From the NCBI GenBank assembly GCA_023484085.1, contig JAMDAS010000002.1, forward strand, positions 536 through 64,535: 64,000 nt of DNA. The letters are read 5' to 3'. A model generated the notes under the pieces. That model was not told the DNA's origin, made no database searches, and worked only from the letters and a program-made list of their open reading frames with translations. Positions 286 through 60,997 of the stretch are shown here, in pieces (position 1 is the first letter of the stretch; each line of letters starts with the position of its first letter). The DNA comes from Candidatus Omnitrophota bacterium (GTDB taxonomy: Bacteria; Ratteibacteria; UBA8468; B48-G9; DTJG01). The position numbers and the translations under genes were made by a program.

Positions 286-288
286 ATT

Positions 289-1107: not shown

Positions 1108-1185
1108 ATTATATTTATTATATAACTACAAATAAGAAGTCGCAAGGAAATATAATTTTAGATTTTATTTATAAAATTCTTATGG

Positions 1186-1245
1186 GTGATGAGCGACGAG
1201 TGAAAACCCATGGTTCAAACCCGTCTTCATAGAAGAACTACAAGT
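1186..1245 (-). repeat. Truncated third tRNA-Asp-linked module (B-type left end) abutting the R-M genes
   Basis: Minus strand reads ACTTGTAGTTCTTCTATGAAGACGGGTTTGAACCATGGGTTTTCACTCGTCG. This parallels the start of the B module (ATTAGCAATTTTCTTTGAAGACGGGTTTGAACCCCTTGGGGTTCACCACGACG), then diverges into the MTase upstream region. Confidence 0.5.
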
Positions 1246-1376
1246 CGGGGCCGACGGGATTTGGCGCCCCTCGTTCTCACTACACTCGGGGTCGGCCATT
1301 CGCTGAAATTGTTACGCCCGCTCACAATTTCTTACTTCGCTCTATTCAATTCCCGTCTTCACAGAAAATTGCTAAT
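1246..1376 (-). repeat. tRNA-linked module, family A (Asp locus): trailer, conserved core and terminal copy of the tRNA-Asp 3' end
   Basis: 1246-1263 repeats CGGGGCCGACGGGATTTG, the 3' end of tRNA-Asp from the T-loop onward. The core at 1264-1376 closely matches 8740-8851 and 8871-8981 (GAGCGAAGTAAGA..hairpin..CAGCGNATGGCCGACCCCGAGTGTAGTGNGAACGAGGGGCGC on the minus strand). Confidence 0.8.
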
Positions 1377-1527
1377 CGGGGCCGACGGGATTATGCTATA
1401 ACTATTCAAGATGCACTATTGACGCATATACTCCTCAACTTTGGAAAGTATACTATCTGTATAGCATAAACAATCGTCGTGGTGAACCCCAAGGGGTTCA
1501 AACCCGTCTTCAAAGAAAATTGCTAAT
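1377..1527 (-). repeat. tRNA-linked module, family B (Asp locus): trailer, core and terminal copy of the tRNA-Asp 3' end
   Basis: 1377-1392 repeats CGGGGCCGACGGGATT. The core at 1393-1527 aligns with the Ser-locus module 45047-45179. Shared blocks are TAGCAAT, TTGAACC, GGGTTCACCACNACG, CTTTCCAAAG and GCGTCAATNGTGCATCTTGNATNGTTNTAGCA. Confidence 0.8.
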
Positions 1528-1601
1528 CGGGGCCGACGGGATTTGAACCCGCGATCTTCGGATCGACAATCCGACATGTTAAACCGCTGCACCACGGCCC
1601 C
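1528..1601 (-). tRNA. tRNA-Asp (GTC)
   Basis: 74-nt cloverleaf on the minus strand. Acceptor GGGGCCG/CGGCCCC, anticodon stem TCGGA/TCCGA with loop TTGTCGA, T arm GCGGG-TTCAAAT-CCCGT, discriminator G. No CCA is encoded. Confidence 0.9.
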
Positions 1602-8627: not shown

Positions 8628-8699
8628 GGACCCGTAGCTCAGCGGCAGAGCACCGGACTCATAATCCGTTGGTTGCAGGTTCGAATCCTGCCGGGTCCA
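8628..8699 (+). tRNA. tRNA with CAT anticodon (elongator Met, or Ile2 if lysidinylated)
   Basis: 72-nt cloverleaf. Acceptor GGACCCG/CGGGTCC, anticodon loop CTCATAA, T arm GCAGG-TTCGAAT-CCTGC. The G1-C72 pair argues against an initiator. tilS is present in this window, so Ile2 is possible. Confidence 0.85.
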
Positions 8700-8715
8700 A
8701 CTTCAATAATTCTTC

Positions 8716-8851
8716 TGTGAGAGACAGGATTTGAATATAGCGCCCCTCGTTCCCACTACACTCGGGGTCGGCCATCCGCTGAGGATTACTACGTTCACTC
8801 GCAATCCTCTTACTTCGCTCCAGTTCAACTCCCCTTAGAATAGATTTGCAA
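8716..8851 (-). repeat. tRNA-linked module, family A (distal copy, Met/Leu intergenic)
   Basis: The core at 8740-8851 is nearly identical to 8871-8981 (period 131 bp, one 1-nt indel). Its outer end, TATATTCAAATCCTGTCTCTCACA (minus strand), is tRNA 3'-end-like and is also the trailer of the converging tRNA-CAT. Confidence 0.8.
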
Positions 8852-22183: not shown

Positions 22184-22204
22184 AAACCCCTCAATAAATA
22201 TTTC

Positions 22205-22356
22205 GTAAATACTCAGTGAACGGTGTTTGAAATAAGTTTGGATTGTCTTTGAAGCTTTGTTTGAAAGAATGTTTTTACAAAGAAGAGAAGAGCAATCCAG
22301 AACTTATTTCCTACTTCAGCTCAGGAAATTATTAACACTGTTTAGTGAATATTTAC
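22205..22356 (+). repeat. Long-palindrome intergenic repeat, copy 1 (MITE/REP-like)
   Basis: 152 bp. Termini GTAAATACTCAGTGAACGGTG / CACTGTTTAGTGAATATTTAC are inverted repeats. Inner arms AAGTTTGGATTGTCTT / AAGAGCAATCCAGAACTT pair with two bulges. Related copies lie at 41355-41511 and 60865-60997. Confidence 0.85.
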
Positions 22357-22450: not shown

Positions 22451-23626
22451 GTGGAGGATATTTTGTTGTCTAAAATGCCCAGTTTACAAAATACGCTGAA
22501 GAAAAATGCAAAAACAATTTTCATAGTCGTCATTATCCTGTTTGTCTTTATAACACTGTTAACGTCCCGGTTGACGGCAAACAGGCAGAAAATACCCCGA
22601 GCCAACGAAAACGTAACCGGAATACTCGGTATTCAGGGGGAAGAAGGTCAAATCTATAACAAAGCCATTGAATCCCGGGTTAACAACGTATCAAACAATT
22701 TAGAACAATTTCAGAACCAGCTGGACGCCCTCCAAAAACAAAACCAGGCACTGACGGACCAGAACAAGCTTTTGAATGCTGAATTGAGACACATCAATGA
22801 CAGAGTAGATAAAAAAATGAATGAGAATCTCAACGAGGCAATGAATAAAATAGAAACAAAAATATCAAACATTATTCCCACCCGGCAGGTTTCTGCTCCA
22901 TCAACTCCACAATCAGAAAGACTTCAAATTATCAGCTTCCCGCAGAAAAAACAGGAACAGACATCTTACAGTCAAAAAGAACTATATCTTCCGGCAGGTT
23001 CTTTTGTAAAAGGTACGTTATTAAGCGGTGTGTTCGCCCCGGAGAACAAATCAAATCCTCTGCCTGTGGTTTTTTCAGTTGACCAGGCGTTTAATGGTCC
23101 TGCAGGAAGTAAAATCCCGCTTAAAGGAATGCTCGGTATAGGAAAAGCACAGGCGGACATAAATTCAAGCAGGGCGGTTATCCAGGTTGTCAGACTTGCA
23201 TACGTATTCCCTGATGGAAAGGTCTGGGAAAAGAATGTTAATGGTTGGGTCTGTGGTCCTGATGATATTCTTGGAGTAAAAGGAAAGATAATTCAGCAAA
23301 CAGGCAGGGCTTTGGCAGGGGCATTCACTTCAGGGTTTCTTTCCGGGGCATCACAGGCTTTATCACAGGCACAAACATCCACACAGCAAACCATTTCAGG
23401 AACACTTGAAACAAATGTGACAGGAAACACTACAAAGTATGGATTATATTCAGGGCTTGCCTCTGCGGCAGGAAACCTTTCAAACTATTATTCCGGTATG
23501 CTGAATCAGATTATCACAGCAATCAAGATCAGGGCAGGGACACCAATACAGATAGTAATGGAAAAAGGAGTATCAATTGAAAGCGGCAACGATTATAACA
23601 ATCATGGGTATTCTTATCATCAGTAG
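22451..23626 (+). CDS. traB: TraB/VirB10 (TrbI family)-like T4SS core protein
   Basis: Short cytoplasmic N-terminus, one TM helix (IFIVVIILFVFITLLTS), a coiled coil (LEQFQNQLDALQKQNQALTDQNKLLNAEL), then a TrbI-type beta domain (LPAGSFVKGTLLSGV...GKAQADINSSRAVIQVVRL...GTPIQIVMEKGVSI). The true start may be TTG 22466 or ATG 22475. Confidence 0.8.
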   Translation: MEDILLSKMPSLQNTLKKNAKTIFIVVIILFVFITLLTSRLTANRQKIPRANENVTGILGIQGEEGQIYNKAIESRVNNVSNNLEQFQNQLDALQKQNQALTDQNKLLNAELRHINDRVDKKMNENLNEAMNKIETKISNIIPTRQVSAPSTPQSERLQIISFPQKKQEQTSYSQKELYLPAGSFVKGTLLSGVFAPENKSNPLPVVFSVDQAFNGPAGSKIPLKGMLGIGKAQADINSSRAVIQVVRLAYVFPDGKVWEKNVNGWVCGPDDILGVKGKIIQQTGRALAGAFTSGFLSGASQALSQAQTSTQQTISGTLETNVTGNTTKYGLYSGLASAAGNLSNYYSGMLNQIITAIKIRAGTPIQIVMEKGVSIESGNDYNNHGYSYHQ

Positions 23627-23975
23627 CGGCTGTGCGGGTATATCTTCTACAACAAGCCGGCAGTCATCAATGGAAAAGCTCTACAGGCACGCAGAAAAAC
23701 AGGGAAAATATGACACAATAAAAGCAATAGCCCGGCAATTAAAAATAAATAAAGCCCTGGGTTATGTAAAGCCCTATGTGCCTGTAATAAATCCACCAGT
23801 GGTCAAAAGAGCGTGGATTGTTCCCCATCAGACAAAAAATGGTGCCCTGGTTGGCGGATATTGGGTATACATAATAGTTAAAAAGCCTTCCTGGTACATA
23901 GATACACCACAGATGAATATACCCGCAATTACAATTCCTTACGTAAATAAAAATAATAACCGGGGAACAAAATGA
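23577..23975 (+). CDS. traV: TraV-like outer-membrane lipoprotein
   Basis: TTG start 6 nt after AAAAAGGAG. Lipobox ISSGC. The C-terminal motif PPVVKRAWIVPHQTKNGALVGGYWVYIIVKKPSW resembles the F-type TraV signature (R.WI.P..D..G.L.....VY.V). Confidence 0.65.
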   Translation: MKAATIITIMGILIISSGCAGISSTTSRQSSMEKLYRHAEKQGKYDTIKAIARQLKINKALGYVKPYVPVINPPVVKRAWIVPHQTKNGALVGGYWVYIIVKKPSWYIDTPQMNIPAITIPYVNKNNNRGTK

Positions 23976-26374
23976 TAACAGAAAAAATATGGGAAAATTT
24001 ATTTGACGAGGGACAAGGCATAGCGGATTTTCTGCCATATTACAGCTTTGAAGATGATGTATTTACATTTGTTGATGGAAGTCTCGGAAAAGGGCTTATT
24101 CTTTCACAGATACCCATTGAACTTAAAACAGATGCAGAACTTGATGTTTTGGCTGCACAGGTTGAGACCCTTATAACCCGCTTCAGACCCGGCTTCTCTT
24201 ATCAGTTTCTACTGCTTTCTATTCCTGACGTCTCAGAAAAATTGGATAAATACTTGTCATACAAAGAAGCGGAACCTTCAGGCCAGTCAAAAATATTCTC
24301 ACAGGGAAAGATTGAAAACATAAAAAAAGGGGCAAACGGGTTTTTCAGGGAAGGCGCAACAACGTATTCTACAAGAGAGATCCATCTGGTTTTTACAATC
24401 AGGTTTTTCCCTTCCCACGGCAAAATGGATTTAGACAGTTTTCAACGGACACTGCAATCAGACAGACAGGCACTTTTAGACCACTATAGCGAGCTATGCT
24501 CTGTTTTGCAGAACCTTAATCTTGGATACAGGGAAATTGACGGAACAGTTCTGGTAGAAATTTTAAGCCGGATGTCCGCTCCAGACAGGCTCCCCCGCAA
24601 TTATAATCCTTCAAAATCTATCAGGCAGCAGATTTTTCTTTCAAATCCTTTTGTAGATGGCGAAGGTTTTGTTCTGGATAAAACAAAGACCATCATTATT
24701 TCACTGATAGAACTTCCTTTAAAAACGTTTCCGGGAATGTTTTGTGTGGGAAGAGAAAAAACTTCTGTGATTGATTTGGCAAGCAATATTGCAATGATTG
24801 TGAACATAGCCTGTAATGACCAGACGGAAGAGATGGAAAAGGTAAAAAGAAAAAGCTCTTTTGCGTTTATCCACAAGACAAATATTCTCGGGGACAGGTC
24901 CATAGAAGCTGACCTTATCAAGAAAGATACTGACACGGTCATAGAAAAAGTGTTTGGACAGGGCAGGAAAATTCTTAACTGTTCCACACATTTTCTTGTC
25001 TGGGAAAACAAAGAAAGCGGAATTGAGAATGAAATAATCAATACGCTCCATTTTCTTGGCTGCGAGGGAGTAAAAGAGAATTTGATAGGAGCAGGCCTGT
25101 TTCTTGCATGCCTTCCTTTTGGATATGACTATAAATTTGAAAAGTTTTATCAGAGAAGTCACAAGATGTTGTCTGATAACGCCAGTGATATTATTCCGGT
25201 CTGGGGTTCCGGCACAGGTTCAAATACACCGGCAGCTATTTTTACAAACAGGCAGGGAAGAGTGTTTTTCTTTGACCCGTTTGACAGCAACAGTCCGCAT
25301 TTTCTTACTGTAGGAATAACCGGGGCAGGGAAAAGTGTGTTTTGTAATAACCTTATTATGGAAGGTCTACGGCTCGGTTCTCATATATTCGTAATTGACA
25401 GGGGTGGCTCATACCAGAGAATTTGTGAAGTAAATGGGGGGCAATACGTTGAAATAGACCCGAATAATCCGACATGTATAAATCCTTTTTCCTCTTCTCT
25501 TAATCCTGAAAATCTTGCCTTTTCGGTTATGCTTGTTTCAGAAATGGCAAGCGGAGGAGAAGATACAGAAAGACTGAGAAGAGAAGAAAGAGCAATCATC
25601 CAGGGAGCAATACAAAATGCCTACCATGAAGTGGCAGGCAGACAGGTAACCCTTTCTGACGTGGCGGAACAGTTAAATAAAGATGAACTACCTGGTAAAA
25701 GACTAATCCTGAAATTGTTGCCATTTTTAAAAAAAGGCCATTATGGCGGATTTTTTGATGGACAGAACCAGCTGGATATCACAAATAATTTTGTGGTTTT
25801 TGAATTAGGGGCGCTTGGCGGATGGAAGGATTTACAGACAGTTCTTTTACTCGCCTTAATGTATCTTCTTACGGGTAAGGTGGCAGGAATGAAAGACATC
25901 AGGAAATACCTTTTGATAGACGAGGCATGGACTCTTCTTAACACGGAAAACACAGCCCGGTTTATAGAAAACGCTTTCAGGACCTTTAGGAAATACAGGT
26001 GCAGCGTAGGGGCAATCTCACAGCAGCTCCAGGACTTTTTTAATACAAAGGCGGGTAATTCCATTATGGCAAATGCAGTCAACAGGATTTATCTTGCGCA
26101 GAATCCTGAAGTGGTTGAAAGTATGAAAGAACAGCTCGGTTTGAATGAAATACAGGTAAAAACGTTAAAAAGCATAAAAACTATCAAGGGCAGATATTCT
26201 GAAGCAATGATAAAAACAGATGCGGATTCCGGTATAGTAAGACTGATTCTTGACCCTGCAAGCTATTGGCTGTTTACAACCGACCCCAAAGACATTTCAA
26301 GACTTAATGAGGCGGTTAAACAAACAGGGAGCCTTGAAAAAGCCATAGAAACACTAACAAAGGAGCGGGTATGA
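23972..26374 (+). CDS. traC: TraC/VirB4-family T4SS ATPase (F-type TraC-like)
   Basis: 800 aa. TraC_F_IV-like N-terminus (DFLPYYSFEDDVFTFVDGSLGKGL), Walker A GITGAGKS, Walker B LLIDEAW. ATGA overlap with traV. Confidence 0.88.
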   Translation: MITEKIWENLFDEGQGIADFLPYYSFEDDVFTFVDGSLGKGLILSQIPIELKTDAELDVLAAQVETLITRFRPGFSYQFLLLSIPDVSEKLDKYLSYKEAEPSGQSKIFSQGKIENIKKGANGFFREGATTYSTREIHLVFTIRFFPSHGKMDLDSFQRTLQSDRQALLDHYSELCSVLQNLNLGYREIDGTVLVEILSRMSAPDRLPRNYNPSKSIRQQIFLSNPFVDGEGFVLDKTKTIIISLIELPLKTFPGMFCVGREKTSVIDLASNIAMIVNIACNDQTEEMEKVKRKSSFAFIHKTNILGDRSIEADLIKKDTDTVIEKVFGQGRKILNCSTHFLVWENKESGIENEIINTLHFLGCEGVKENLIGAGLFLACLPFGYDYKFEKFYQRSHKMLSDNASDIIPVWGSGTGSNTPAAIFTNRQGRVFFFDPFDSNSPHFLTVGITGAGKSVFCNNLIMEGLRLGSHIFVIDRGGSYQRICEVNGGQYVEIDPNNPTCINPFSSSLNPENLAFSVMLVSEMASGGEDTERLRREERAIIQGAIQNAYHEVAGRQVTLSDVAEQLNKDELPGKRLILKLLPFLKKGHYGGFFDGQNQLDITNNFVVFELGALGGWKDLQTVLLLALMYLLTGKVAGMKDIRKYLLIDEAWTLLNTENTARFIENAFRTFRKYRCSVGAISQQLQDFFNTKAGNSIMANAVNRIYLAQNPEVVESMKEQLGLNEIQVKTLKSIKTIKGRYSEAMIKTDADSGIVRLILDPASYWLFTTDPKDISRLNEAVKQTGSLEKAIETLTKERV

Positions 26375-26790
26375 AAAAGATAATAATACTTTTTGTTTTT
26401 TGGACTGTTTTAACTGCAGCCGGGGCTTTGAAAGCACAAAATGTTTCTGAAAATATCACAACAGATACGGCTATAAAACATCATAAACATCCAGGTTTTG
26501 TTGATTTTTTTCAGGATATTTTTTCCCCGGGAAAAGAAAAAGAGAAAAAAGCATATAAAGAAGGGTATAAGGCAGGCGTGAAAGAACAATTAAAGAAATT
26601 CAGGGAGAACTTTGTAGATAACCAGGTCCCTTATTATTACTGGCAATCACCTATTGTCCAGAAAGTAAAAATCCCGGCGCAGCTCGTTAACGGGTTTTTT
26701 ATACCATCACACTATGAATACGTAATTATCCAGCCGGGCAAATGGCAGAAGGAATATGCCTATCCCATTGCAAAAGGAGAATCCCGATGA
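26371..26790 (+). CDS. Secreted protein with a TraV-like C-terminal motif
   Basis: Signal peptide (AAGALKAQ). The C-terminus SPIVQKVKIPAQLVNGFFIPSHYEYVIIQPGKW aligns with the motif of the 132-aa lipoprotein. ATGA overlaps on both sides. Confidence 0.6.
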   Translation: MKKIIILFVFWTVLTAAGALKAQNVSENITTDTAIKHHKHPGFVDFFQDIFSPGKEKEKKAYKEGYKAGVKEQLKKFRENFVDNQVPYYYWQSPIVQKVKIPAQLVNGFFIPSHYEYVIIQPGKWQKEYAYPIAKGESR

Positions 26791-28418
26791 AAAGAATAAT
26801 AATGGTTTTTTTAACCGTGATTGTTTTAACTGCACCCGGAACTTATTTAAAGGCGCAGAAATTAAGCAATAGTGAAAAACAGGAAATAATCAACAAGGAG
26901 TGGAAACAGCTGATGGGGCAATACCATCAGGCTATAAATAATAAAAAGTTTCAGGAACGGATTAAACAGGAAGGCTATAAACGGACCAATAAACCCGTAC
27001 CGGAGAGTAAAGGTATTCAAAACCCCTGTCCGATAACAAAAGTTATACTGCCGGAGCCTGTTTTTTTAAACAAAATTATGTATATCAACATAGGCTCAGC
27101 GCCATTAAGAATCGTACTATCTGAATTAGCCACACAGCTCGGAGTACCCATAATAACGAAAAGCGGGGTTAACCCTGATATGAACGTACAGGGAAATTTT
27201 AATGGCCAGACAGCAAAAGACGTTCTGGATAATCTTTGTAATCTTCTGGATTACGCCTGGGATGTGAAAAAAGGGAAAATTTATATCAGTAAATTTGGCT
27301 CAGAGATGTTTCAATTATCTGTCCCATATATATCAACGCAATTTTCCAATGAAATAGATTTATCAGCAAACGGTATAACCGGTTATTCGGCAGGAGCGTC
27401 CAGCCCTTATAATAACATGCCTGACACAACAGGCACAGCAGGTAATACATCCACCTTGAATAATAATTCTTCCGGGAATGGCAACTCCGGGCCCAACTCT
27501 TTTGTCCGGATATATGCAGACAAAGTGTCTTTATATGAAAATATAAATGAGAACCTTAAAAGCCTTATCAGCAAAGACGGAAAGTTTGCAATAAACAATG
27601 AAGCGGGAACAATCTTTGTTTTTGACAGGGTACGGAACCTGAAGAGAATTTCAGAATATTTTAAAACCCTGAACAAAACCCTTTCAGAAGAACTTCTTGT
27701 GAAAGCAAAAGTTGTGGAAGTAACGCTTAATAAAGGATTTCAGGGTGGTGTTAACTGGAACCTGCTTACTTCAGAGTCAGGTTTTCAGACAGATTTCAAC
27801 CTGCTCTCATCAGGTCCTGTTTTCCTGCTGCGAAGCAGACAGCCGACTACAACAGGCACAACAACAAACGGAATGGAGGAAATAATCAATCTATTAGGCA
27901 GCCAGGGAAAGATTTCTATTCTTTCAGAACCCCAGATAACAGTCCTGAATGACCAGCCGGCAATTATCCAGATGGCAGACATTGTTTCCTATATAGCCCA
28001 GTCAAGCCAGTATATAACCCAGGTAGGGAGCCAGACAGCCATAACACCAGGGGAAGTAATGGATGGAGTAAACATGACAATAATTCCCAAGATTTCAAAG
28101 CAGGGGATATTTCTTAACGTAATGCCATCCGTAACAATGGTAAAACAGATACAAACCATAAACACGGGAAATGGCACTGAAATCCAGTTACCACAGGTTG
28201 CCTCAAGAGCATTGAACACGTCTATAAGAATTAAGGATGGGGATATTATTGCAATAGGCGGGCTTATTTTTAATCAAAAAGACAAGGAGGAACAGGGAAT
28301 ACCTGTTTTATCAAAAATACCTGTTATAGGGGCTTTATTCAGGCAAAATACAGATACAACAAGCAAAGATGAGTTGCTGATATTTTTAACAGCAAGGAGA
28401 ATAAAGTGGAGTATGTGA
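26787..28418 (+). CDS. Secretin (GspD/PilQ superfamily) outer-membrane channel
   Basis: Signal peptide; N0/STN-like domain (LRIVLSELATQLGVPIITKSG..AKDVLDNLCNLLDYAWDVKKGKIYIS); S/T/N/G-rich linker; N1-like domain; C-terminal secretin domain (ILSEPQITVLNDQPAIIQ ... GGLIFNQKDKEEQGIPVLSKIPVIGALF). The start is at ATG 26787 after AAAGGAGA. Confidence 0.88.
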   Translation: MKRIIMVFLTVIVLTAPGTYLKAQKLSNSEKQEIINKEWKQLMGQYHQAINNKKFQERIKQEGYKRTNKPVPESKGIQNPCPITKVILPEPVFLNKIMYINIGSAPLRIVLSELATQLGVPIITKSGVNPDMNVQGNFNGQTAKDVLDNLCNLLDYAWDVKKGKIYISKFGSEMFQLSVPYISTQFSNEIDLSANGITGYSAGASSPYNNMPDTTGTAGNTSTLNNNSSGNGNSGPNSFVRIYADKVSLYENINENLKSLISKDGKFAINNEAGTIFVFDRVRNLKRISEYFKTLNKTLSEELLVKAKVVEVTLNKGFQGGVNWNLLTSESGFQTDFNLLSSGPVFLLRSRQPTTTGTTTNGMEEIINLLGSQGKISILSEPQITVLNDQPAIIQMADIVSYIAQSSQYITQVGSQTAITPGEVMDGVNMTIIPKISKQGIFLNVMPSVTMVKQIQTINTGNGTEIQLPQVASRALNTSIRIKDGDIIAIGGLIFNQKDKEEQGIPVLSKIPVIGALFRQNTDTTSKDELLIFLTARRIKWSM

Positions 28419-29404
28419 AACAACAAAACAAGTATTTTGTTTTTTGTGAACCCAAAATTCAAAAAGCGGTAAATGAAGAATCCCTGGAAAAAATACAGGA
28501 TAACAATAATTTTTTCTGTTATGAAAAAATTGATGAAGAACTATACCAGGTATTTATTTTGCCTGTATCCGTAATAGATAAGATAAAAAAACAGACAGAG
28601 CTAAGCAAAACAGTTCTTATTCCCTATCAAACCTCTGTAAGAAATCTGCTTACCAATTCAGAACCCGCCCTGTTTCTACACGCTTTAGATGATACAACAC
28701 TTATAATGACAGGCATAAAAGGAAAAGAGGTTTCACAGGCTACCCCGGTTCCAATCAAAAACATAAAAGAAACTGTGAAATTTTCTATCAACGACTATAA
28801 AACAACTTTCAGGTTGGAAAGCATGTCTGTTATTACAAATAGCAGGGATATAGCAGAACAGTTAGAAGGGATAGAGGTAAAGACCATTTCCTTTCCCCAT
28901 GCCCTGCCTGTCCAAAACACACCTGAATTTATTCTTCCCCAACACATTGAATTCAAGAAGACAGAAGCAGAAAACAAACAAATCCGGATGATTGGCGGGA
29001 CAGCTGTATTTGGTGTTTTACTTGCCGTTGCAATTTTTTACCAGAACAGGACAGGACTTACAAAGGTAATACAACAAAGAAACATGCTGCAAAAAAAAGT
29101 GACGATAATGCAGACAGCATATACAAACTACCAGCAGCAGGACACGTCAAAATACTTTTCATCCCGGCAAAAAAACAAAATGGTATCTCTGATTTTAAAA
29201 TTATCACACCTGCCACCGGGATACACTTTTAAGAATTTAAAAATAAAACGGATGCCATCCGGAAATTACATGGCAGATGTTTTTATATCCATAGCTGCCC
29301 CGGGAATGTCTTCACAGCCTTTAAGAATTCTGTTCCCTGAAGGAATAATAGATCCGGTTTTTCAAAACCAGGGGCAAATATATAGAATCAGACTTGGAAT
29401 TTAA
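28406..29404 (+). CDS. Bitopic inner-membrane protein with GspL/PilO(R64)-like architecture
   Basis: GTG start 5 nt after AAGGAGA. About 190-aa cytoplasmic domain, a single TM helix (MIGGTAVFGVLLAVAIFY), and about 120-aa periplasmic domain. The call rests on architecture only. Confidence 0.45.
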   Translation: MEYVKQQNKYFVFCEPKIQKAVNEESLEKIQDNNNFFCYEKIDEELYQVFILPVSVIDKIKKQTELSKTVLIPYQTSVRNLLTNSEPALFLHALDDTTLIMTGIKGKEVSQATPVPIKNIKETVKFSINDYKTTFRLESMSVITNSRDIAEQLEGIEVKTISFPHALPVQNTPEFILPQHIEFKKTEAENKQIRMIGGTAVFGVLLAVAIFYQNRTGLTKVIQQRNMLQKKVTIMQTAYTNYQQQDTSKYFSSRQKNKMVSLILKLSHLPPGYTFKNLKIKRMPSGNYMADVFISIAAPGMSSQPLRILFPEGIIDPVFQNQGQIYRIRLGI

Positions 29405-30381: not shown

Positions 30382-31476
30382 TCAGGGCTTGATGGGCATT
30401 ACTATATATACGTAATTTTCATTTCCTTCAGGAGCTATTTGGGCCGGTTTTGTCGGTTCCGTAAAAGAAAGCCTTATGTTTTCCTCTTCAACAGTTTTTA
30501 AAAAATCTATCAGATATACAGGATTAAAAATCATAGTAACGTCCGGACCTGAATATTCTATCTTGATTTTTTCCTCTCCTAATCCTATATCAGGGCTTTC
30601 AAGGTTGAGAACAAGAAGGTTTTGCCTGAAATGCATGTATAAAGAGTTAAAATTCAGACTTGATAAGAGATTTATACGGGAAAGGGAAGAAAAAAGCTCT
30701 TTTGTGTTTATTTTTGCATAATTGAGCTTTCCTGATGGAAATACCGTGTTATAGTTGGGAAATTCCCCTTCAAGAAGTTGGGATGTTAATAATATCCTGT
30801 CAGTACTGAAACTTATCTGATTTTTTGATACAGCCACTTTCATTTTTTCATCCTTTACAAGGTAGGGGAAAACCTCCAAAAGTTTATAGGGGAGTAAAAT
30901 TTTTAATAAGTTTTTGTTGGATGTTTCTTTTTTTATTAAACCCATACGTCGTGTATCCGTTCCCACCATTGTTAATATTCTGGTATCTGAATTAAACAAA
31001 GCACCCCTGAAATATACACGGGCTTCCTGGGGATTTATACAATAACAGGTTTTTTTAATCATATCTACAAAATCTTCGGAAGATAAAACAAAGGAATTGG
31101 CTTCTGAAGAAATATCCTGCTCCGGAAGCTTGGGGAAATCCTCAATTGACATTGTAAGAAGTTTATATTGAAAATTTTTATTTTCAATTATTAAATAATT
31201 ATCTTTTGTTATCATTTTTATTGAGGATTCAGGAAGTTCTTTTATCAGGGAAATAAAATTTTTCCCTGGAATAAGAATACTGCCTTTTTCCTTGACAGAA
31301 CCTTCCATGAATATTTTTAAGGTTAACTGAAGGTCTGTTGTTGTAAATGATACCCCTTCTTTTTTCGCCTCCATTAAAATTCCGCCCAAACTTACGATTG
31401 GGGGTTTTAAAGGAAGCACTTTACCCATTTTTTCTATAATTCCCGATAATTCTTTTCTTTCTATTATTAATTCCAT
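30382..31476 (-). CDS. dnaN: DNA polymerase III beta sliding clamp
   Basis: 364 aa with three-domain clamp-like periodicity, located directly downstream of dnaA; C-terminal YIVMPIKP. Confidence 0.9.
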   Translation of the reverse strand: MELIIERKELSGIIEKMGKVLPLKPPIVSLGGILMEAKKEGVSFTTTDLQLTLKIFMEGSVKEKGSILIPGKNFISLIKELPESSIKMITKDNYLIIENKNFQYKLLTMSIEDFPKLPEQDISSEANSFVLSSEDFVDMIKKTCYCINPQEARVYFRGALFNSDTRILTMVGTDTRRMGLIKKETSNKNLLKILLPYKLLEVFPYLVKDEKMKVAVSKNQISFSTDRILLTSQLLEGEFPNYNTVFPSGKLNYAKINTKELFSSLSRINLLSSLNFNSLYMHFRQNLLVLNLESPDIGLGEEKIKIEYSGPDVTMIFNPVYLIDFLKTVEEENIRLSFTEPTKPAQIAPEGNENYVYIVMPIKP

Positions 31477-31586
31477 ATTTACTCCTTTTTTTTAAATAAA
31501 TTAAAATATATATTCTTAGTAATATTGTGTAAAAGTTATATCTTGTTGAAATTCATATACTTATAATGTGTGTTTCCTGTGAAGAA

Positions 31587-32879
31587 CTATTCATGTAAGC
31601 TGTTTATTATTTTTTCAATGGACATTTTTAAATAAGAATCTGTTTCCAATTGTGTTTTTAATTTTTTACAGGCATATAAAATCGTTGTATGGTCTTTTCC
31701 TCCAAATTCTTCAGCGATGGCAGTAAGAGACATATCTGTTTTTTCCCTTGCTATATACATTGCTATCTGTCTTGGTACAACAAGTGTTTTTAATCTTCTT
31801 GAGCTTTTTAAATCATGAACGCTGATGTTAAAATAAAAGGCAACCTTTTCCTGTATTTTTTCAATGGTTATGATTTTCTTCTGGGATGAAATAAGATCCC
31901 TGAGATATTCTTTTGTTATGTTTATGTCAAGGGTTTTATTTAAAAGAGATGAGATGGCAATAAGTCTGTTAAGTGCACCTTCAAGAAGCCTGACGTTATC
32001 ATGAATATTTTCAGCTATATAAAAAACAACGTCATCATCCAAAAATATTTTTTTTAATTCACATTTTTTCCGTAAAATCGCAACCCGTGTTTCAAATTCA
32101 GGGGGTTTAAGGTCAGTTACAAGACCCCATTCAAAACGTGAAACAAGTCTTTTTTCAAGGGAAAACAATTCTTTGGGTGGCCTGTCACTGGTAAGAATTA
32201 TCTGTTTTTTCTGGTCATAAAGAGAGTTAAACGTATTAAAAAACTCTTCCTGGGTACCTTCTTTACCTGCTATAAAATGTATGTCATCTATAAGTAGAAT
32301 ATCCAGGGAACGAAAATTATTTCTAAAAGTATTCATTGTTTTTGTCTGGATGGATTGTATAAAAAGATTAACAAAATTTTCACATGGAAGATAGGCTGTT
32401 TTACAGTTATTGGTTTTGATTGCCATGGAACCTATTGCCTGTATAAGATGTGTTTTTCCCAAACCCACGCCGCCATATATGAAAAATGGATTATAGGCTA
32501 TTCCCGGTGACTGGGCGATTGCAATTCCTGCAGCATGTGCCAATTGATTACATTGACCGCGGACAAAATTATCAAAAGAATTTGCCGGATTAAGTTTTTC
32601 ACCAAAATAAAGGGAGGGAGGATTTTTTTTGGATTCCGGGTACGACCACTTTATTTCCATGTTATAACCTGTAATGTTTGATAAGGATTCCCTTAAATCA
32701 TTGATAAAACCGCTGATTCCTTTGTAAAACAATGGATTTGGGATTTCAAGGTATATATAATTATTCTCGATTTTTACAGGTTTGATAGGTTTTATCCATG
32801 TTTCAAAAGCCCTGTCATTTCTTATTCTATCTTTTAAGTTTCTTAACACTAAATCCCAGTTTTTCCACAAGTTATCCAC
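31587..32879 (-). CDS. dnaA: Chromosomal replication initiator DnaA
   Basis: Walker A GGVGLGKTHL, box LLIDDIHF, sensor TSDRPP, C-terminal HTH (DHTTILYACKK). GTG start at 32879. Confidence 0.95.
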   Translation of the reverse strand: MDNLWKNWDLVLRNLKDRIRNDRAFETWIKPIKPVKIENNYIYLEIPNPLFYKGISGFINDLRESLSNITGYNMEIKWSYPESKKNPPSLYFGEKLNPANSFDNFVRGQCNQLAHAAGIAIAQSPGIAYNPFFIYGGVGLGKTHLIQAIGSMAIKTNNCKTAYLPCENFVNLFIQSIQTKTMNTFRNNFRSLDILLIDDIHFIAGKEGTQEEFFNTFNSLYDQKKQIILTSDRPPKELFSLEKRLVSRFEWGLVTDLKPPEFETRVAILRKKCELKKIFLDDDVVFYIAENIHDNVRLLEGALNRLIAISSLLNKTLDINITKEYLRDLISSQKKIITIEKIQEKVAFYFNISVHDLKSSRRLKTLVVPRQIAMYIAREKTDMSLTAIAEEFGGKDHTTILYACKKLKTQLETDSYLKMSIEKIINSLHE

Positions 32880-36753: not shown

Positions 36754-36825
36754 TGCCGGGGGACAGAATCGAACTGCCCACGCCAGCCTTTTCAGGGCTG
36801 CGCTCTACCACTGAGCTACCCCGGC
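36754..36825 (-). tRNA. tRNA-Phe (GAA)
   Basis: 72 nt on the minus strand. Acceptor GCCGGGG/CCCCGGC, D arm GCTCAGTGGTAGAGC, anticodon loop CTGAAAA, T arm GGCAG-TTCGATT-CTGTC. Confidence 0.9.
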
Positions 36826-41354: not shown

Positions 41355-41511
41355 GTAAATACTCAAGTAGAACGACGTTTGAAGTAAGTTTGGATTGTCT
41401 TTAAATCTTTATTTGAAGCATTTATCTTTATAAAGATATAAAGAGCAATCCAGAACTTATCTCTGAACATTTTCATTTCAATCACTGAGACGGGGTTCAG
41501 TGAATATTTAC
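41355..41511 (+). repeat. Long-palindrome intergenic repeat, copy 2
   Basis: 157 bp. It shares GTAAATACTCAAGTAGAACG..GTTTGAAGTAAGTTTGGATTGTCTTT ... AAGAGCAATCCAGAACTTAT ... CAGTGAATATTTAC with copies 1 and 3. The central stem carries a compensatory change (CTTTAT/ATAAAG versus CTTTGT/ACAAAG). Confidence 0.85.
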
Positions 41512-42799: not shown

Positions 42800-44047
42800 A
42801 TGGTAAATGCAAAAATAATAATCGGGGACAGCAGAAAAATGCTCGAGGTTAAAAATGATAGTATAGATTTAGTCGTAACTTCGCCGCCATATTGGCATAT
42901 TAAAGATTATGGCGTTGGAGGTCAAATAGGATATGGCCAATCTTTACATGAGTATCTCAAAAGTTTATTTCTCGTCTGGAAAGAATGTTTCAGAACCCTA
43001 AAACCCGGAACAAGGTTATGCATAAATATAGGCGACCAATTTTTAAGAAGCATAATTTACGGAAGATATAAAATAGCCCCGCTTCATTCCGAATTTATAA
43101 CCCAATGTGAAAAAATCGGTTTTGATTATATGGGTTCAATAATTTGGCAGAAGAAAACAACAATGAACACTACAGGTGGAGCGAGTATAATGGGTTCCTA
43201 TCCCTATCCGCCCAATGGATTAGTGGAAATAGACTATGAATTTATTTTAATTTTCAAAAAGCCGGGAAAAACCATGTTTTCTAAGGAATCGAAAGAAAAG
43301 TCAAAATTAACCAAGGAGGAATGGAAAGAATATTTTTCCGGACACTGGAATTTTAATGGAGAAAGACAAGCCGGACATGAAGCAATGTTTCCGGAAGAAT
43401 TACCAAAAAGACTAATTAAAATGTTCACGTTTGTCGGAGATACTGTATTGGACCCATTTTTGGGAAGCGGCACTACCCTTAAATCCGCTATAAATTTGGG
43501 CCGAAACTCTATAGGATATGAAATAAATGATGAATTCCTGTCCATGATAAAAAATAAAATTGAACTAAATGGAACTTTGTTTGCTTTAAATCATCAAGTA
43601 GAAATCCTGAAACAAAATAAATCAATTTCAATAGAAAACGATATTGATTATATTCCCAATATCAAAGATGCAAAACCAGTTATCTCCCCGGATAAATTCA
43701 AATTTGATAAAGAAAGATTATACAAAGTAGTAAACATTTTAAACGAAAAAACCATTGAATTGGATACAGGCCTTAAAATAACATTTCTAGGCGTAAATAG
43801 TATTCCTCAGCAATCCAATAAGGCAATGAACTATCTTGAAGAATACGTTAGAGGGAAACAAGTATTCTTAAAATTTGATTCCTTATTCAAATCAACTACA
43901 AATGGAATACCTGCTTATGTATTCCTCAAAAATAAAATTTTCATCAATAAAGAGCTGATTAAACAAAAATTTGCAAATATTCCGGACTATAACTTTAAAT
44001 ACAAAGATACCTTTGAAAAACTAATGACAGGAACGACACATGGCTAA
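42800..44047 (+). CDS. DNA methyltransferase (SPPY motif, N4-cytosine/N6-adenine beta class) fused to a degenerate SNase-like C-terminal domain
   Basis: Motif IV VVTSPPYW near the N-terminus and motif I LDPFLGSGTT at about aa 217. Residues ~305-395 follow the thermonuclease fold pattern (ITFLGVNSIP..., GIPAYVFLKNKIFINKELIKQKFA), but the catalytic D/R/E residues are replaced. Confidence 0.8.
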   Translation: MVNAKIIIGDSRKMLEVKNDSIDLVVTSPPYWHIKDYGVGGQIGYGQSLHEYLKSLFLVWKECFRTLKPGTRLCINIGDQFLRSIIYGRYKIAPLHSEFITQCEKIGFDYMGSIIWQKKTTMNTTGGASIMGSYPYPPNGLVEIDYEFILIFKKPGKTMFSKESKEKSKLTKEEWKEYFSGHWNFNGERQAGHEAMFPEELPKRLIKMFTFVGDTVLDPFLGSGTTLKSAINLGRNSIGYEINDEFLSMIKNKIELNGTLFALNHQVEILKQNKSISIENDIDYIPNIKDAKPVISPDKFKFDKERLYKVVNILNEKTIELDTGLKITFLGVNSIPQQSNKAMNYLEEYVRGKQVFLKFDSLFKSTTNGIPAYVFLKNKIFINKELIKQKFANIPDYNFKYKDTFEKLMTGTTHG

Positions 44048-44672
44048 AGAATGGATTTTGAACAGTGCAACAAACAGATTTCAGATGAATTTCTCAAGAA
44101 ACGTCGGTAAAGTTTCAGAAGAAATAAGAAAATGCTCCCCGAAAAACATTAAAGACTGGGAAAGATACTATTATGCCAATGTTCGGGCCAAAAAACATCT
44201 TATAGACCTTGGAAGAAAATTATTTACAAAAATCACAGAAGTATTACAAGCAGAGATAGAAAGCGTAACAGAACAGGATTGCATAGACTTTATAATCAAT
44301 CTTGTCATCAAAAGAACTTTTGATGGATATGAAACAGAAAGAAAAACAATTTACGGCCAACTGCAGGAAATTCTCAATGTCAAGATTGAACCTGCACCTG
44401 ATGAATGGGACAGATTATATAACGTTGACTTTTTCATAAAAATTAAAGACAAATTTATAGGACTGCAAATCAAACCAGCAGGCGGAGTTTCTCATATTCC
44501 ACAGATTTGGCATGAAAGAACACAGCAAACCAAGACCCATGCAAAATTTACTGCAGAATATGGCGGAAAAGTCTTTTATGTTATATCCATAAAGGATGGA
44601 GATAAAAAGAGGATACACAACAAAGAAGTAATTGGAGAAATAAAAAAGGAAATTAAGAGATTACAGAGTTAA
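44040..44672 (+). CDS. Putative type II restriction endonuclease (cognate of the upstream MTase)
   Basis: 210 aa with an 8-nt overlap with the MTase. Candidate PD-(D/E)xK core YNVDFFIKIKDKFIGLQIKP. It may be MjaI-like, but I cannot verify this from memory. Confidence 0.55.
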   Translation: MAKEWILNSATNRFQMNFSRNVGKVSEEIRKCSPKNIKDWERYYYANVRAKKHLIDLGRKLFTKITEVLQAEIESVTEQDCIDFIINLVIKRTFDGYETERKTIYGQLQEILNVKIEPAPDEWDRLYNVDFFIKIKDKFIGLQIKPAGGVSHIPQIWHERTQQTKTHAKFTAEYGGKVFYVISIKDGDKKRIHNKEVIGEIKKEIKRLQS

Positions 44673-44681
44673 AAACTAATT

Positions 44682-44882
44682 ATGAACAATAATCAAAACG
44701 ATAAAATTGTATTTTCTGTTATTTTGGACGAACTGCAACAGGAAGCAGTCCGTTTAATTGGGCGAGAATTAAATGAATTTGAAATATACACAGCAATAAA
44801 GGGAATTGAATCCGGTCTGTCATTTGACATTGAAACCATATTTAAAACCGAAATTGAAGAATCTGTGAGTTGCAAAATGTAG
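44682..44882 (+). CDS. Hypothetical small acidic protein downstream of the R-M pair
   Basis: 66-aa ORF starting 9 nt after the REase stop. I recognise no motif. Confidence 0.35.
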
Positions 44883-44955
44883 AAAATAATCCTCTTCAAT
44901 ATATTAAGAATATGTATTTATGATAAAATAATAGATTGAGAGATTAGTAAAATCT

Positions 44956-45046
44956 GGAGGGGTCGCATAGAGGCCTAGTGCGGCGGATTGCTAATCCGTT
45001 GTATCGTCGCAAGGCGATACCGTGGGTTCAAATCCCACCCCCTCCG
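44956..45046 (+). tRNA. tRNA-Ser (GCT)
   Basis: 91 nt. Acceptor GGAGGGG/CCCCTCC, anticodon stem GCGGA/TCCGT with loop TTGCTAA, long variable arm (GTATCGTCGCAAGGCGATACC), T arm GTGGG-TTCAAAT-CCCAC. Confidence 0.9.
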
Positions 45047-45196
45047 TATAGCAATCTTCTACGGAGGTGGGAATTGAACCACGGGTTCACCACTACGGCT
45101 GTTTTTACCATACAGGAAGTTGCTTTCCAAAGAAGCCGTAGAGTGTGCGTCAATGGTGCATCTTGTATGGTTCTAGCACAATCCCACCCCCTCCGT
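45047..45196 (+). repeat. tRNA-linked module, family B (Ser locus) ending in a copy of the tRNA-Ser 3' end
   Basis: 45180-45196 AATCCCACCCCCTCCG duplicates 45030-45046. The core aligns with the Asp-locus B module. The 5' segment ACGGAGGTGGGA is complementary to the tRNA-Ser 3' end. Confidence 0.85.
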
Positions 45197-45217
45197 ATAG
45201 CAATCTTCTACGGAGGG
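45197..45217 (+). repeat. Second copy of the tRNA-Ser trailer (start of a third, diverged unit)
   Basis: TATAGCAATCTTCTACGGAGG repeats 45047-45067 exactly. The sequence then diverges into the toxin-antitoxin region. Confidence 0.7.
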
Positions 45218-60864: not shown

Positions 60865-60997
60865 GTAAATACTCAAGTAGAACGGTGTTTGAAATAAGTT
60901 TGGATTGTCTTTGAGGATTTGTTTGAAAGAACGTTTTTACAAAGATGAGAAGAGCAATCCGGAACTTATTTCTTACTTCAGCTCAGTGAATATTTGC
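60865..60997 (+). repeat. Long-palindrome intergenic repeat, copy 3 (shorter right arm)
   Basis: 133 bp and nearly identical to copy 1 across GTTTGAAATAAGTTTGGATTGTCTTTGA...AGAAGAGCAATCC(A/G)GAACTTATTTC. It ends 3 nt before the RBS of the PIN-TRAM gene. Confidence 0.85.

What the first reader, a model, noticed from the sequence alone, without database searches (positions are those of the whole stretch)
44956..45217. Family B module at tRNA-Ser, with a 5' segment complementary to the Ser 3' end and the same core as the Asp-locus B module
Seen in sequence: tRNA-Ser(GCT) is followed by TATAGCAATCTTCTACGGAGGTGGGAATTGAACCACGGGTTCACCACTACGG...CTTTCCAAAG...GTGCGTCAATGGTGCATCTTGTATGGTTCTAGCAC and then AATCCCACCCCCTCCG. 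That last block is an exact copy of the tRNA-Ser 3' end from the T-loop onward. The 21-nt trailer then repeats again (45197-45217). The Asp-locus B module shares the blocks TAGCAAT, TTGAACC-hairpin-GGTTCACCACNACG, CTTTCCAAAG and GCGTCAATNGTGCATCTTGNATNGTTNTAGCA. Its tRNA-complementary segment and terminal tRNA copy are swapped from Ser-specific (ACGGAGGTGGGA / TCCCACCCCCTCCG) to Asp-specific (GAAGACGGG / CCCGTCGGCCCCG). The small hairpin changes from GAACC-ACG-GGTTC to GAACCC-CTTG-GGGTTC. Inference: one element family is adapted to two different tRNA targets by co-varying a guide-like segment with the duplicated target. The 5' and 3' ends of the module could pair into an acceptor/T-arm-like minihelix.
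Basis: partly seen in the sequence, partly recalled or inferred. Interest (0 to 1): 0.78.

Follow-up and report, generated by a model that had tools for sequence, protein, structure and literature searches.

The report
Tiny gene-less inserts at tRNA ends
Behind several tRNA genes of this uncultured Omnitrophota bacterium sit 130-150-base gene-less DNA modules, each carrying a spare copy of the tRNA's tail and a mirror-image copy of it. They look like a new miniature kind of tRNA-targeting mobile element, but how they move is not shown.

Summary
tRNA-Ser(GCT) is followed by a 112-nt body flanked by a perfect 37-nt direct repeat. The repeat is the tRNA 3' end from the T-loop, then a 15-nt spacer, then CGGAGG.

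The same body family (B, 72% identical and colinear) follows tRNA-Asp. There the repeat is Asp-specific.

A second family (A, 82% identical) sits at tRNA-Asp and tRNA-Leu under the same rules. All copies lie at tRNA 3' ends, in tandem arrays.

Each unit begins with an imperfect inverted copy of its own tRNA's T-loop and T-stem. This copy best matches the adjacent tRNA in 6 of 7 units, by small margins.

The modules are non-coding and match no Rfam family. No recombinase is encoded in the 64 kb. Two independent assemblies reproduce B at the Ser and Asp loci. No relatives were found elsewhere, but the searches were narrow.

Best reading (about 0.45): these are non-autonomous, attP-like mini-elements integrated at the tRNA T-loop by a recombinase supplied in trans. 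They regenerate the tRNA 3' end and accumulate in tandem.

The "guide" and "minihelix" ideas are compatible with the data but unproven.

Rivals:
- a casposon-like transposon;
- a structured RNA co-transcribed with the tRNA;
- passive duplication with palindrome correction.

The parts
44956..45046 (+). tRNA-Ser(GCT), intact, no encoded CCA. Its last 16 nt (45031-45046) are the first copy of the direct repeat.
   Evidence: ARAGORN; Rfam tRNA 55.2 bits; sequence
45031..45067 (+). Direct repeat copy 1 (37 nt): tRNA 3' end from the T-loop (16 nt), 15-nt spacer TATAGCAATCTTCTA, then CGGAGG
   Evidence: D13 (100% identical to 45180-45216)
45062..45085 (+). Imperfect inverted copy of the tRNA-Ser acceptor 3' strand, T-stem and T-loop (CGGAGGTGGGAATTGAACCACGGG). 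It overlaps a small hairpin, TTGAACC-ACG-GGTTCA (45074-45089).
   Evidence: (best match is tRNA-Ser)
45068..45179 (+). Family B body (112 nt), non-coding. The conserved 3' block TGCGTCAATGGTGCATCTTGTATGGTTCTAGCAC ends it.
   Evidence: 72% identity to the Asp B body; CTTTCCAAAG is read in different frames in the two copies
45180..45216 (+). Direct repeat copy 2: displaced tRNA-Ser 3' end copy (45180-45195), spacer (45196-45210), then CGGAGG. It is followed by G and unrelated AT-rich DNA.
1528..1601 (-). tRNA-Asp(GTC), head of a three-unit array
1393..1526 (-). Asp-locus family B unit: spacer TTAGCAATTTTCTTT, inverted copy GAAGACGGGTTTGAACC, B body
   Evidence: reproduced in L010
1376..1392 (-). 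Exact copy of the tRNA-Asp 3' end (AATCCCGTCGGCCCCGA) that closes the B unit
   Evidence: 3 matches against 0.04 expected
1262..1375 (-). Asp-locus family A unit (spacer, inverted copy GAAGACGGGAATTGAA, A body)
1245..1261 (-). Third exact copy of the tRNA-Asp 3' end
1185..1244 (-). Third Asp unit (B*). It has a different 15-nt spacer, CTTGTAGTTCTTCTA, then TGAAGACGGGTTTGAACC-ATG-GGTTTTCAC, B-like for about 35 nt only. A DNA methylase gene (289-1107) follows.
8740..8981 (-). Two tandem family A units behind tRNA-Leu(CAA) (8982-9064), period about 131 nt, essentially identical. The Leu 3' end copy is at 8852-8870.
   Evidence: (D4, D11)
8700..8739 (+). tRNA-Met trailer: 16-nt spacer ACTTCAATAATTCTTC, then an imperfect inverted copy of the Met T-arm (TGTGAGAGACAGGATTTGAATAT). 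It abuts the last base of the distal A body.

Best explanation
A and B are two families of gene-less, non-autonomous integrative modules, about 131 and 149 bp per unit. Each is essentially a bare attP-like site. They insert into tRNA genes at the T-loop and replace the tRNA's 3' end with their own exact copy.

Shown:
- Every unit is bounded by a 36-41-nt direct repeat. It starts inside the T-loop, runs through the discriminator base, and continues about 20 nt into a spacer.
- The tRNA stays intact.
- Units stack head-to-tail at one tRNA.
- The same colinear body occurs at different tRNAs, each time with that tRNA's own repeat.
- The spacer motif is shared across tRNAs and families, so it travels with the module.

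Inferred:
- A site-specific recombinase encoded elsewhere in the genome recombines the module's tRNA-like site with the tRNA gene. A tyrosine integrase of the T-loop-crossover type is the most likely candidate.
- Each new arrival lands next to the tRNA and pushes older units, and the displaced tRNA tail, outward.
- The inverted T-arm copy at the module's 5' end, together with the tRNA tail copy, forms a roughly 55-bp quasi-palindrome. This is part of the recombination site, either as a second binding arm or as a hairpin in a single-stranded intermediate. That role would explain why it tracks the target tRNA.
- Retargeting from one tRNA to another happens by rare integration into another T-loop. 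Gene conversion from the displaced genuine tail, selection for a working tRNA, and quasi-palindrome correction of the inverted arm would then follow.
For: - Repeats begin in the T-loop in all units: AATCC.. at Ser and Asp, TCAACTCC.. at Leu.
- Repeat length of 36-41 nt fits the roughly 40-nt partial-tRNA att sites, and the tandem accretion, described for tRNA-integrating elements (bioRxiv 10.1101/2020.12.28.424599; CIME concept, PMC5704250).
- All four tRNAs with arrays or trailers are intact.
- All 5 complete units and the partial one lie at tRNA 3' ends. There are no orphan copies in 64 kb.
- B(Ser) and B(Asp), and A(Leu) and A(Asp), are colinear over their whole length, so the mini form itself propagated.
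- Conservation is highest next to the repeat: the 3' 33-45 nt are 88-95% identical. The middle is variable. This is the pattern expected for recombination arms.
- The spacers of Ser_B, Asp_B, Asp_A and Leu_A are homologous although the tRNAs differ.
- The third Asp spacer differs at 9 of 15 positions between otherwise identical flanks. This rules out a simple target-site duplication and fits an incoming att next to a resident att.
- Restriction-modification and toxin-antitoxin genes flank the arrays. One R-M block is strain-variable.
- Modules have 38-57% GC within 18-27% GC intergenic DNA.
Against: - No integrase, transposase, Cas1 or reverse transcriptase is encoded in the 64 kb. No full-length relative was seen.
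- No empty site or copy-number polymorphism was found. The two other assemblies carry the same B units.
- B has no inverted partner of the T-stem immediately left of the T-loop, as a classical core site would. The inverted partner lies 26-30 bp to the right, too far for a 6-8-bp overlap.
- Swapping about 37 nt of att between tRNAs is not a known easy step for integrases.
- A 131-149-bp circle is a poor double-stranded substrate.
- Compensatory changes in internal hairpins hint at a single-stranded form that this model does not require.
- The distal A unit at Leu ends precisely on a Met-like, not Leu-like, tRNA tail. This is unexplained.
Confidence: 0.45

Rival explanations
1. Transposon-like miniature element with terminal inverted repeats that mimic the T-loop and T-stem. 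A casposase/Cas1-like or other ruler-type integrase would mobilise it. The enzyme would read the T-psi-C region of a tRNA gene as a 'leader', nick at a fixed distance, and duplicate the intervening target. The repeats would then be target-site duplications made anew at each insertion, so retargeting to a new tRNA needs no adaptation.
For: - Casposons integrate at tRNA 3' ends. The required target is an 18-bp T-psi-C segment plus a 15-bp duplicated segment. Tandem copies share one duplication, and duplications can reach 35 nt (PMC5137440; PMC4779613).
- Here a 15-17-nt spacer follows every tRNA tail or tail copy. The spacers flanking Ser_B (15/15), Leu_A1 (17/17) and Asp_B (14/15) match.
- Ser_B has a 14-16-nt terminal inverted repeat, CGGAGG..TGGGA / TCCCA..CCTCCG.
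- A locus-specific duplication explains the exact tRNA copies without any att swapping.
Against: - The two spacers flanking Asp_A differ at 9 of 15 positions.
- Spacers of different tRNAs are homologous, so they are element-borne and not target-derived.
- In Asp and Leu the module termini are not inverted repeats of each other. Only an internal 9-10 nt match.
- No Cas1, PolB or transposase is in the window.
Confidence: 0.17
2. Structured small RNAs co-transcribed with the tRNA. The module's 5' inverted copy pairs with its 3' tRNA-tail copy to form an acceptor/T-stem-like helix. The tRNA-processing enzymes (RNase Z, RNase P, CCA-adding enzyme) would then cut the module out like another tRNA of a polycistronic precursor. 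The RNA would have a cellular role, or serve as a retro-mobile intermediate that homes by pairing with tRNA sequence.
For: - No terminator or internal promoter separates the tRNA from the modules.
- The predicted folds of B are more stable than shuffles: z -3.35 for Ser and -2.6 for Asp. Both are closed by the terminal helix.
- There are compensatory changes: C-G to U-A in ACCAUACA/UGUAUGGU, an added C-G pair in the small hairpin, and two double changes plus a co-deleted pair in the A hairpin.
- The modules are GC-rich islands in AT-rich spacer DNA.
- The modules are non-coding.
Against: - Only two sequences per family are available, so covariation has no statistical weight.
- A modules do not fold better than shuffles (z -0.5 to -0.8).
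- Asp_B folds equally well on the antisense strand (z -2.8).
- The Ser_B and Asp_B minimum-energy topologies differ.
- There is no Rfam match even at E<=10.
- The inverted segment lacks the acceptor part in Asp and Leu, so the 'minihelix' there is only 6-9 bp.
- No reverse transcriptase is in the window.
- An RNA role does not by itself explain the exact DNA duplication of the tRNA tail.
Confidence: 0.15
3. No dedicated mobility. The arrays would be products of local duplication, unequal crossing-over and gene conversion around a lineage-specific palindromic tRNA trailer. Quasi-palindrome template switching during replication would keep the inverted arm matched to the selected tRNA arm. A and B would have spread between loci by ordinary recombination.
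For: - The two Leu A units are essentially identical tandem copies (D4).
- A spacer plus inverted arm also follows tRNA-Met, which has no forward body.
- The inverted arms are imperfect, as expected for ongoing correction.
- No recombinase is in the window.
Against: - The same colinear body sits at identical register behind unrelated tRNAs (Asp/Ser, Asp/Leu). The junctions are precise to the base. This is hard to obtain without a site-specific process.
- tRNA-Phe has no such trailer.
- The spacer motif is shared across loci.
Confidence: 0.1

Closest known systems
tRNA-gene-integrating elements of tyrosine integrases (T-loop crossover sublocation) and their gene-less derivatives, the cis-mobilizable elements (CIMEs); tandem accretion as in tycheposon islands
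   Same: - About 40-nt partial-tRNA direct repeats that start in the T-loop.
- The tRNA is regenerated.
- Successive insertions at the same tRNA push older ones outward.
- Derivatives lacking an integrase are known.
- Defence and toxin-antitoxin cargo lies nearby.
   Different: - The units are only 131-149 bp, with 95-112 bp of unique, non-coding sequence, about the size of an attP alone.
- The same mini-body is found at three different tRNA identities with the att swapped.
- Each carries an inverted copy of the target's T-arm 26-30 bp from the direct copy, which classical att cores do not have.
- No integrase was seen.
Casposons and artificial mini-casposons (Cas1 casposase)
   Same: - The target is defined by the T-psi-C region of a tRNA gene plus an adjacent segment of about 15 bp.
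- Tandem arrays are separated by a shared short segment.
- There is a leader-repeat-like logic.
   Different: - There are no consistent terminal inverted repeats.
- The spacers flanking one unit are not always identical.
- The spacers are homologous between different tRNAs.
- No Cas1 or PolB is in the window.
Integron cassettes and attC sites
   Same: - Arrays of short cassettes are separated by imperfect palindromes of 50-60 nt.
- The arm sequences vary while the complementarity is kept.
- Recombination of a folded single strand would explain the arm co-variation.
   Different: - There are no R''/R' (RYYYAAC/GTTRRRY) boxes.
- The palindrome polarity is GTTC...GAAC.
- There is no intI or attI.
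- One arm is an exact tRNA tail.
- The cassettes are non-coding.
Guide-bearing mobile elements (IS200/IS605 guide tetranucleotides, IS110 bridge RNA, group II intron EBS/IBS)
   Same: An element-borne segment is complementary to the target and differs between copies at different targets.
   Different: - Those elements leave no 37-41-nt direct repeat.
- They have characteristic RNAs or hairpins, and a recombinase or RT.
- The complementarity here is mostly to the generic T-loop.
- No guiding function was tested.

Membership tests
tRNA-integrating site-specific element / CIME-like derivative | Insert flanked by direct repeats that are a partial copy of the target tRNA gene (att core), with the tRNA regenerated | tested here: met
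   37-41-nt repeats starting in the T-loop at Ser, Asp (x3) and Leu (x2). The tRNAs score 55-64 bits.
tRNA-integrating site-specific element / CIME-like derivative | Tandem accretion at the same att site | tested here: met
   Asp: B, A, B*. Leu: A, A.
tRNA-integrating site-specific element / CIME-like derivative | A cognate integrase, in the element or in trans in the same genome | tested here: not met
   None among about 60 ORFs of the 64-kb window. The rest of the genome could not be reached.
tRNA-integrating site-specific element / CIME-like derivative | Core site with inverted binding arms flanking a 6-8-bp overlap at the crossover | tested here: not met
   B has no T-stem complement left of the T-loop (..CTAGCAC|AATCCCAC). 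The inverted arm lies 26-30 bp downstream.
tRNA-integrating site-specific element / CIME-like derivative | Evidence of mobility: empty sites, excision, strain polymorphism | tested here: inconclusive
   Only two other assemblies of the same species could be reached. Both carry B at Asp and Ser. Contigs end inside the repeats.
Casposon / mini-casposon | Terminal inverted repeats at both ends | tested here: inconclusive
   Ser_B has 14-16 nt. Asp and Leu units have only an internal 9-10-nt match and their termini differ.
Casposon / mini-casposon | Identical target-site duplication flanking each unit | tested here: not met
   The spacers flanking Asp_A differ at 9 of 15 positions. Spacers are homologous between different tRNAs.
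Casposon / mini-casposon | Cas1 casposase (with PolB) in the autonomous partner | tested here: not met
   Absent from the window. Not testable genome-wide.
Integron cassette array (attC) | R''/R' core boxes RYYYAAC...GTTRRRY and a neighbouring intI/attI | tested here: not met
   The arms read GGTTCAAATCC...GGAATTGAACC. No integrase is in the window.
Classical MITE (DDE transposase) | Terminal inverted repeats plus a short (2-10 bp) target duplication, dispersed copies | tested here: not met
   Repeats are 36-41 nt. All copies are at tRNA 3' ends and none elsewhere.
Known RNA families (tRNA-like elements, ribozymes, sRNAs) | Match to an Rfam covariance model | tested here: not met
   Only the five tRNAs pass gathering scores. 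Nothing credible on the modules at E<=10.
Retroelement primer-binding site | Complement of the mature tRNA 3' end including CCA (TGG...) | tested here: not met
   There is no TGG. In Asp and Leu the acceptor strand is not covered.
IS110-type bridge-RNA element / IS200-IS605 PATE | No long flanking direct repeat; characteristic RNA or end hairpins; cognate recombinase | tested here: not met
   37-41-nt direct repeats. The body is only 95-112 nt. No recombinase is in the window.

The most novel reading that the evidence does not exclude
A and B are members of a previously undescribed class of ultra-small non-coding mobile modules that recognise their targets through nucleic-acid structure or complementarity. 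The module's two ends (the inverted T-arm copy and the tRNA-tail copy) would fold, as single-stranded DNA or RNA, into a mimic of the tRNA acceptor/T-arm duplex. That fold, not a fixed protein-read sequence, would specify which tRNA gene is invaded. The family could then be re-addressed to any tRNA by co-varying two short segments.
Probability: 0.15. Interest if true: 0.9.

Novelty: new variant of a known kind. Interest (0 to 1): 0.6.

Why it matters
If these are mobile, they would be among the smallest site-specific integrative units known. Each is little more than an attachment site, yet two families have each colonised different tRNA genes while keeping the tRNA functional.

That would give a natural system for asking how integration specificity is re-addressed between tRNA genes. 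It would also let one ask whether a hairpin or palindrome made from target sequence takes part in site choice.

The modules also matter practically. They break short-read assemblies at tRNA loci in Omnitrophota. They mark tRNA loci where restriction-modification and toxin-antitoxin genes lie next to the arrays; one R-M block is strain-variable.

If they turn out to be decayed scars of ordinary islands, the finding is ordinary.

Tried and rejected
**Searches for relatives, all empty**
- Exact-pattern scan for the B 3' block GCGTCAATNGTGCATCTTG:
  - species-representative genomes: one chance hit, in Pseudoalteromonas;
  - JGI metagenomes: 7 chance hits in GC-rich, non-tRNA contexts;
  - viral contigs: none.
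- A-block scan of viral contigs: none.
- blastn of A and B against plasmids: none.
- Six-frame "spurious ORF" protein searches for B and A against 5.8 billion proteins: none. Two earlier short queries timed out.
- Viral-contig scan for [T-loop]-N24-44-[inverted T-loop]: 45 loci. None had a matching inverted T-stem or an A/B-like body.

These are narrow searches: exact words, or only called ORFs. Absence therefore means little.

**Blocked routes**
The closest was HtpX at 87% identity, P0002, on a 326-kb contig.
- Three window proteins were not on record.

**Ideas rejected**
- Protein-coding: the conserved CTTTCCAAAG block is read in different frames in the two B copies.
- Known ribozyme or sRNA: no Rfam match.
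- Intrinsic terminator or promoter inside the modules: none.
- Antisense pseudo-tRNA: no tRNA detected on either strand.
- Simple 15-nt target-site duplication: fails at Asp_A.
- Assembly artefact: independent contigs reproduce the loci.
- Literature on Omnitrophota genomes mentions nothing similar.
Full report
**1. The observation**

ARAGORN and Rfam find five tRNA genes in the window:

| tRNA | coordinates | strand |
|---|---|---|
| Asp(GTC) | 1528-1601 | - |
| Met(CAT) | 8628-8699 | + |
| Leu(CAA) | 8982-9064 | - |
| Phe(GAA) | 36754-36825 | - |
| Ser(GCT) | 44956-45046 | + |

None encodes CCA.

At the Ser locus a perfect 37-nt direct repeat occupies 45031-45067 and 45180-45216 (D13). The 16-nt tRNA tail occurs twice, against 0.19 expected. 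The repeat has three parts:
- the tRNA from the T-loop to the discriminator (AATCCCACCCCCTCCG);
- a 15-nt spacer (TATAGCAATCTTCTA);
- CGGAGG.

Between the repeats lie 112 nt, the B body. It starts with TGGGAATTGAACCACGGG. Together with the preceding CGGAGG this is the reverse complement of the tRNA-Ser acceptor 3' strand and whole T-arm, with one mismatch and two small indels.

Independent assemblies of the same species reproduce tRNA-Asp+B (L010) and tRNA-Ser+B+second repeat (L011, 99.9% over 1629 nt). This is not a misassembly.

**2. The same rules hold at three loci and for two body families**

The sequences below are read in the tRNA's orientation.

- *Asp.* The tRNA is followed by a B unit (1393-1526), a copy of the Asp tail, an A unit (1262-1375), another copy of the Asp tail, and a third unit, B* (1185-1244). 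B* resembles B for only about 35 nt. The 17-nt Asp tail occurs three times, against 0.04 expected.
- *Leu.* The tRNA is followed by two essentially identical A units (period about 131 nt), with the 19-nt Leu tail repeated.

B(Ser) and B(Asp) are colinear and 72% identical (84/116). A(Leu) and A(Asp) are 82% identical (76/93). The highest conservation is in the 33-45 nt next to the tail copy (88-95%).

No A or B copy lies anywhere else in the window.

Every unit has the same plan:
- the tRNA tail copy, exact, starting in the T-loop;
- a 15-17-nt spacer;
- an imperfect inverted copy of the T-loop and the T-stem 3' strand;
- the body.

The spacers of Ser_B (TATAGCAATCTTCTA), Asp_B and Asp_A (TTAGCAATTTTCT..) and Leu_A (TTGCAAATCTATTCTAA) are clearly homologous, although the tRNAs are not. 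So the spacer travels with the modules and is not a native trailer.

tRNA-Met is also followed by a 16-nt spacer and an imperfect inverted Met T-arm. This abuts the last base of the distal A body. tRNA-Phe has nothing of the kind.

**3. How strong is the co-variation?**

I compared the reverse complement of each inverted segment with the last 32 nt of all five tRNAs. The neighbouring tRNA scores best in 6 of 7 units.

The margins are only 2-3 matches, because most of the segment is the generic T-loop. The seven units represent four independent loci.

| locus | tRNA-specific part of the inverted segment |
|---|---|
| Ser | GTGGG plus CGGAG(G) |
| Asp | GAC(GGG) |
| Leu | one or two bases (AGTTGAA instead of A[AT]TTGAA) |
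| Met | CAGG |

The acceptor strand is covered only in Ser.

The exact tail copy needs no guide. It is what any integration into a tRNA gene leaves behind.

**4. What the modules are not**

- *Not coding.* The conserved CTTTCCAAAG block is read in different frames in the two B copies. Six-frame searches found no called ORFs resembling them.
- *Not a known RNA.* Only the tRNAs pass Rfam thresholds. Nothing credible appears at E<=10.
- *No transcription signals.* No promoter-like or terminator-like site separates the modules from the tRNA.

**5. Structure**

As RNA, Ser_B folds into a junction closed by pairing of the 5' inverted copy with the 3' tail copy (-49.7 kcal/mol, z -3.35). Asp_B folds similarly (z -2.6), but equally well on the antisense strand (z -2.8). 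The A units do not beat shuffles (z -0.5 to -0.8).

Pairwise consensus folding shows some compensatory changes:
- C-G to U-A in ACCAUACA/UGUAUGGU;
- one added C-G pair in the small hairpin;
- in A, two double changes and a co-deleted pair in GAGGAUUGC/GUAAUCCUC.

With two sequences per family this is suggestive only. Palindromes can also co-evolve by template switching without selection.

The modules have 38-57% GC and sit in 18-27% GC spacer DNA.

**6. Context**

HtpX homologues place the organism in Candidatus Omnitrophica/Omnitrophota. The best non-self hit is 87% identical.

The window is ordinary chromosome around dnaA and dnaN. It encodes no integrase, transposase, Cas1 or reverse transcriptase.

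Defence and addiction genes flank the arrays:
- a DNA methylase right after the Asp array;
- a methylase plus MjaI-like endonuclease upstream of tRNA-Ser;
- a ParE toxin-antitoxin pair downstream of B.

In another assembly the R-M block is absent. Identity to the window begins at 44946, ten bases before the tRNA.

**7. Search for relatives**

Exact-pattern scans for B gave only chance hits in species-representative genomes and in JGI metagenomes. Viral contigs and plasmids gave nothing.

A structural scan of viral contigs for T-loop/inverted-T-loop palindromes found nothing comparable.

The families therefore look lineage-restricted. The searches were narrow, and I could not examine the rest of this genome or its relatives.

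**8. Interpretation**

The repeats start in the T-loop, are about 40 nt long, regenerate the tRNA, and stack in tandem. These are the hallmarks of site-specific integration into tRNA genes. They match the roughly 40-nt partial-tRNA att sites and tandem accretion described for tycheposons. They also match the gene-less CIME derivatives of integrative elements.

Because B and A are each colinear between loci, the mini form itself must have spread. I therefore read them as non-autonomous, attP-sized integrative modules served by a recombinase encoded elsewhere (confidence about 0.45).

Three points fit this reading and argue against a simple target duplication:
- the third Asp spacer differs between otherwise identical flanks;
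- the spacers are homologous across different tRNAs;
- conservation peaks next to the repeat.

Five points do not fit a textbook integrase site:
- the inverted T-arm copy lies 26-30 bp away from the direct copy;
- B has no inverted arm left of the T-loop;
- the unit is very small;
- about 37 nt of att would have to be swapped between tRNAs;
- the distal Leu A unit ends precisely on a Met-like tail.

These oddities keep three rivals alive:
- a casposon-like, ruler-type integrase reading the T-psi-C region (0.17);
- passive duplication with quasi-palindrome correction (0.10).

**9. Verdict**

The "guide" function is not demonstrated, and part of the shared sequence is common to all modules and to the tRNA-Met trailer.

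This is best filed as a new variant of tRNA-targeting integrative elements: miniature, gene-less, and multi-target, with an unusual target-derived palindrome.

There is a modest chance (about 0.15) that target choice is made by nucleic-acid structure. That would be genuinely new.

Noticed in passing
window 42800-44945 versus L011 1630-1895: The restriction-modification block upstream of tRNA-Ser (DNA methylase, MjaI-like endonuclease, 66-aa ORF) is absent from another assembly of the same species. Identity to the window (99.9%) starts at 44946, ten bases before the tRNA. Upstream, L011 instead carries an 88%-identical relative of the window gene at 11515-12021.
   Followed up: partly
window 22203-22329, 41355-41463, 60865-60991: A third intergenic repeat family of about 125 nt has three copies, 71-93% identical. 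It is internally palindromic (AATAAGTTTGGATTGTCTTTG ... CAAAGA..GAGCAATCCAGAACTTATT). It is not next to tRNAs and has no Rfam match. It may be a REPIN/MITE-like element or a shared leader.
   Followed up: partly
window 8700-8739: tRNA-Met is followed by a 16-nt spacer and an imperfect inverted copy of its own T-arm. Read on the other strand, this is a tRNA-tail-like sequence (TTCAAATCCTGTCTCTCACA) joined exactly to the last base of the distal family A body of the Leu array. The A unit is thus bounded by a Leu-like arm on one side and a Met-like arm on the other.
   Followed up: partly
window 1-1244: The third Asp unit (B*) shares only its first roughly 35 nt with B. A promoter-like site (1117-1145) and a DNA methylase gene running to the window start follow it. 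It could be the left end of a larger, cargo-carrying relative of B that extends beyond the window.
   Followed up: no
window 45174-45202 and 1370-1398: In both B units the pentamer TAGCA occurs at the end of the body and again in the spacer, exactly 24 nt apart, bracketing the tRNA tail copy. The A units lack this.
   Followed up: partly
L009 end (3142) and L010 end (1890): Independent short-read contigs of the same species stop inside the repeat system. L009 ends in the tRNA-Asp T-stem. L010 ends 11 nt into the second Asp tail copy. This is consistent with repeat-induced breaks or population heterogeneity after the B unit.
   Followed up: no
window 22451-29404: A cluster encodes a TrbI-like protein, a TraG/TraC-type ATPase (800 aa) and a secretin. 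It lies in otherwise housekeeping chromosome a few kb from dnaN and dnaA (30382-32879).
   Followed up: no
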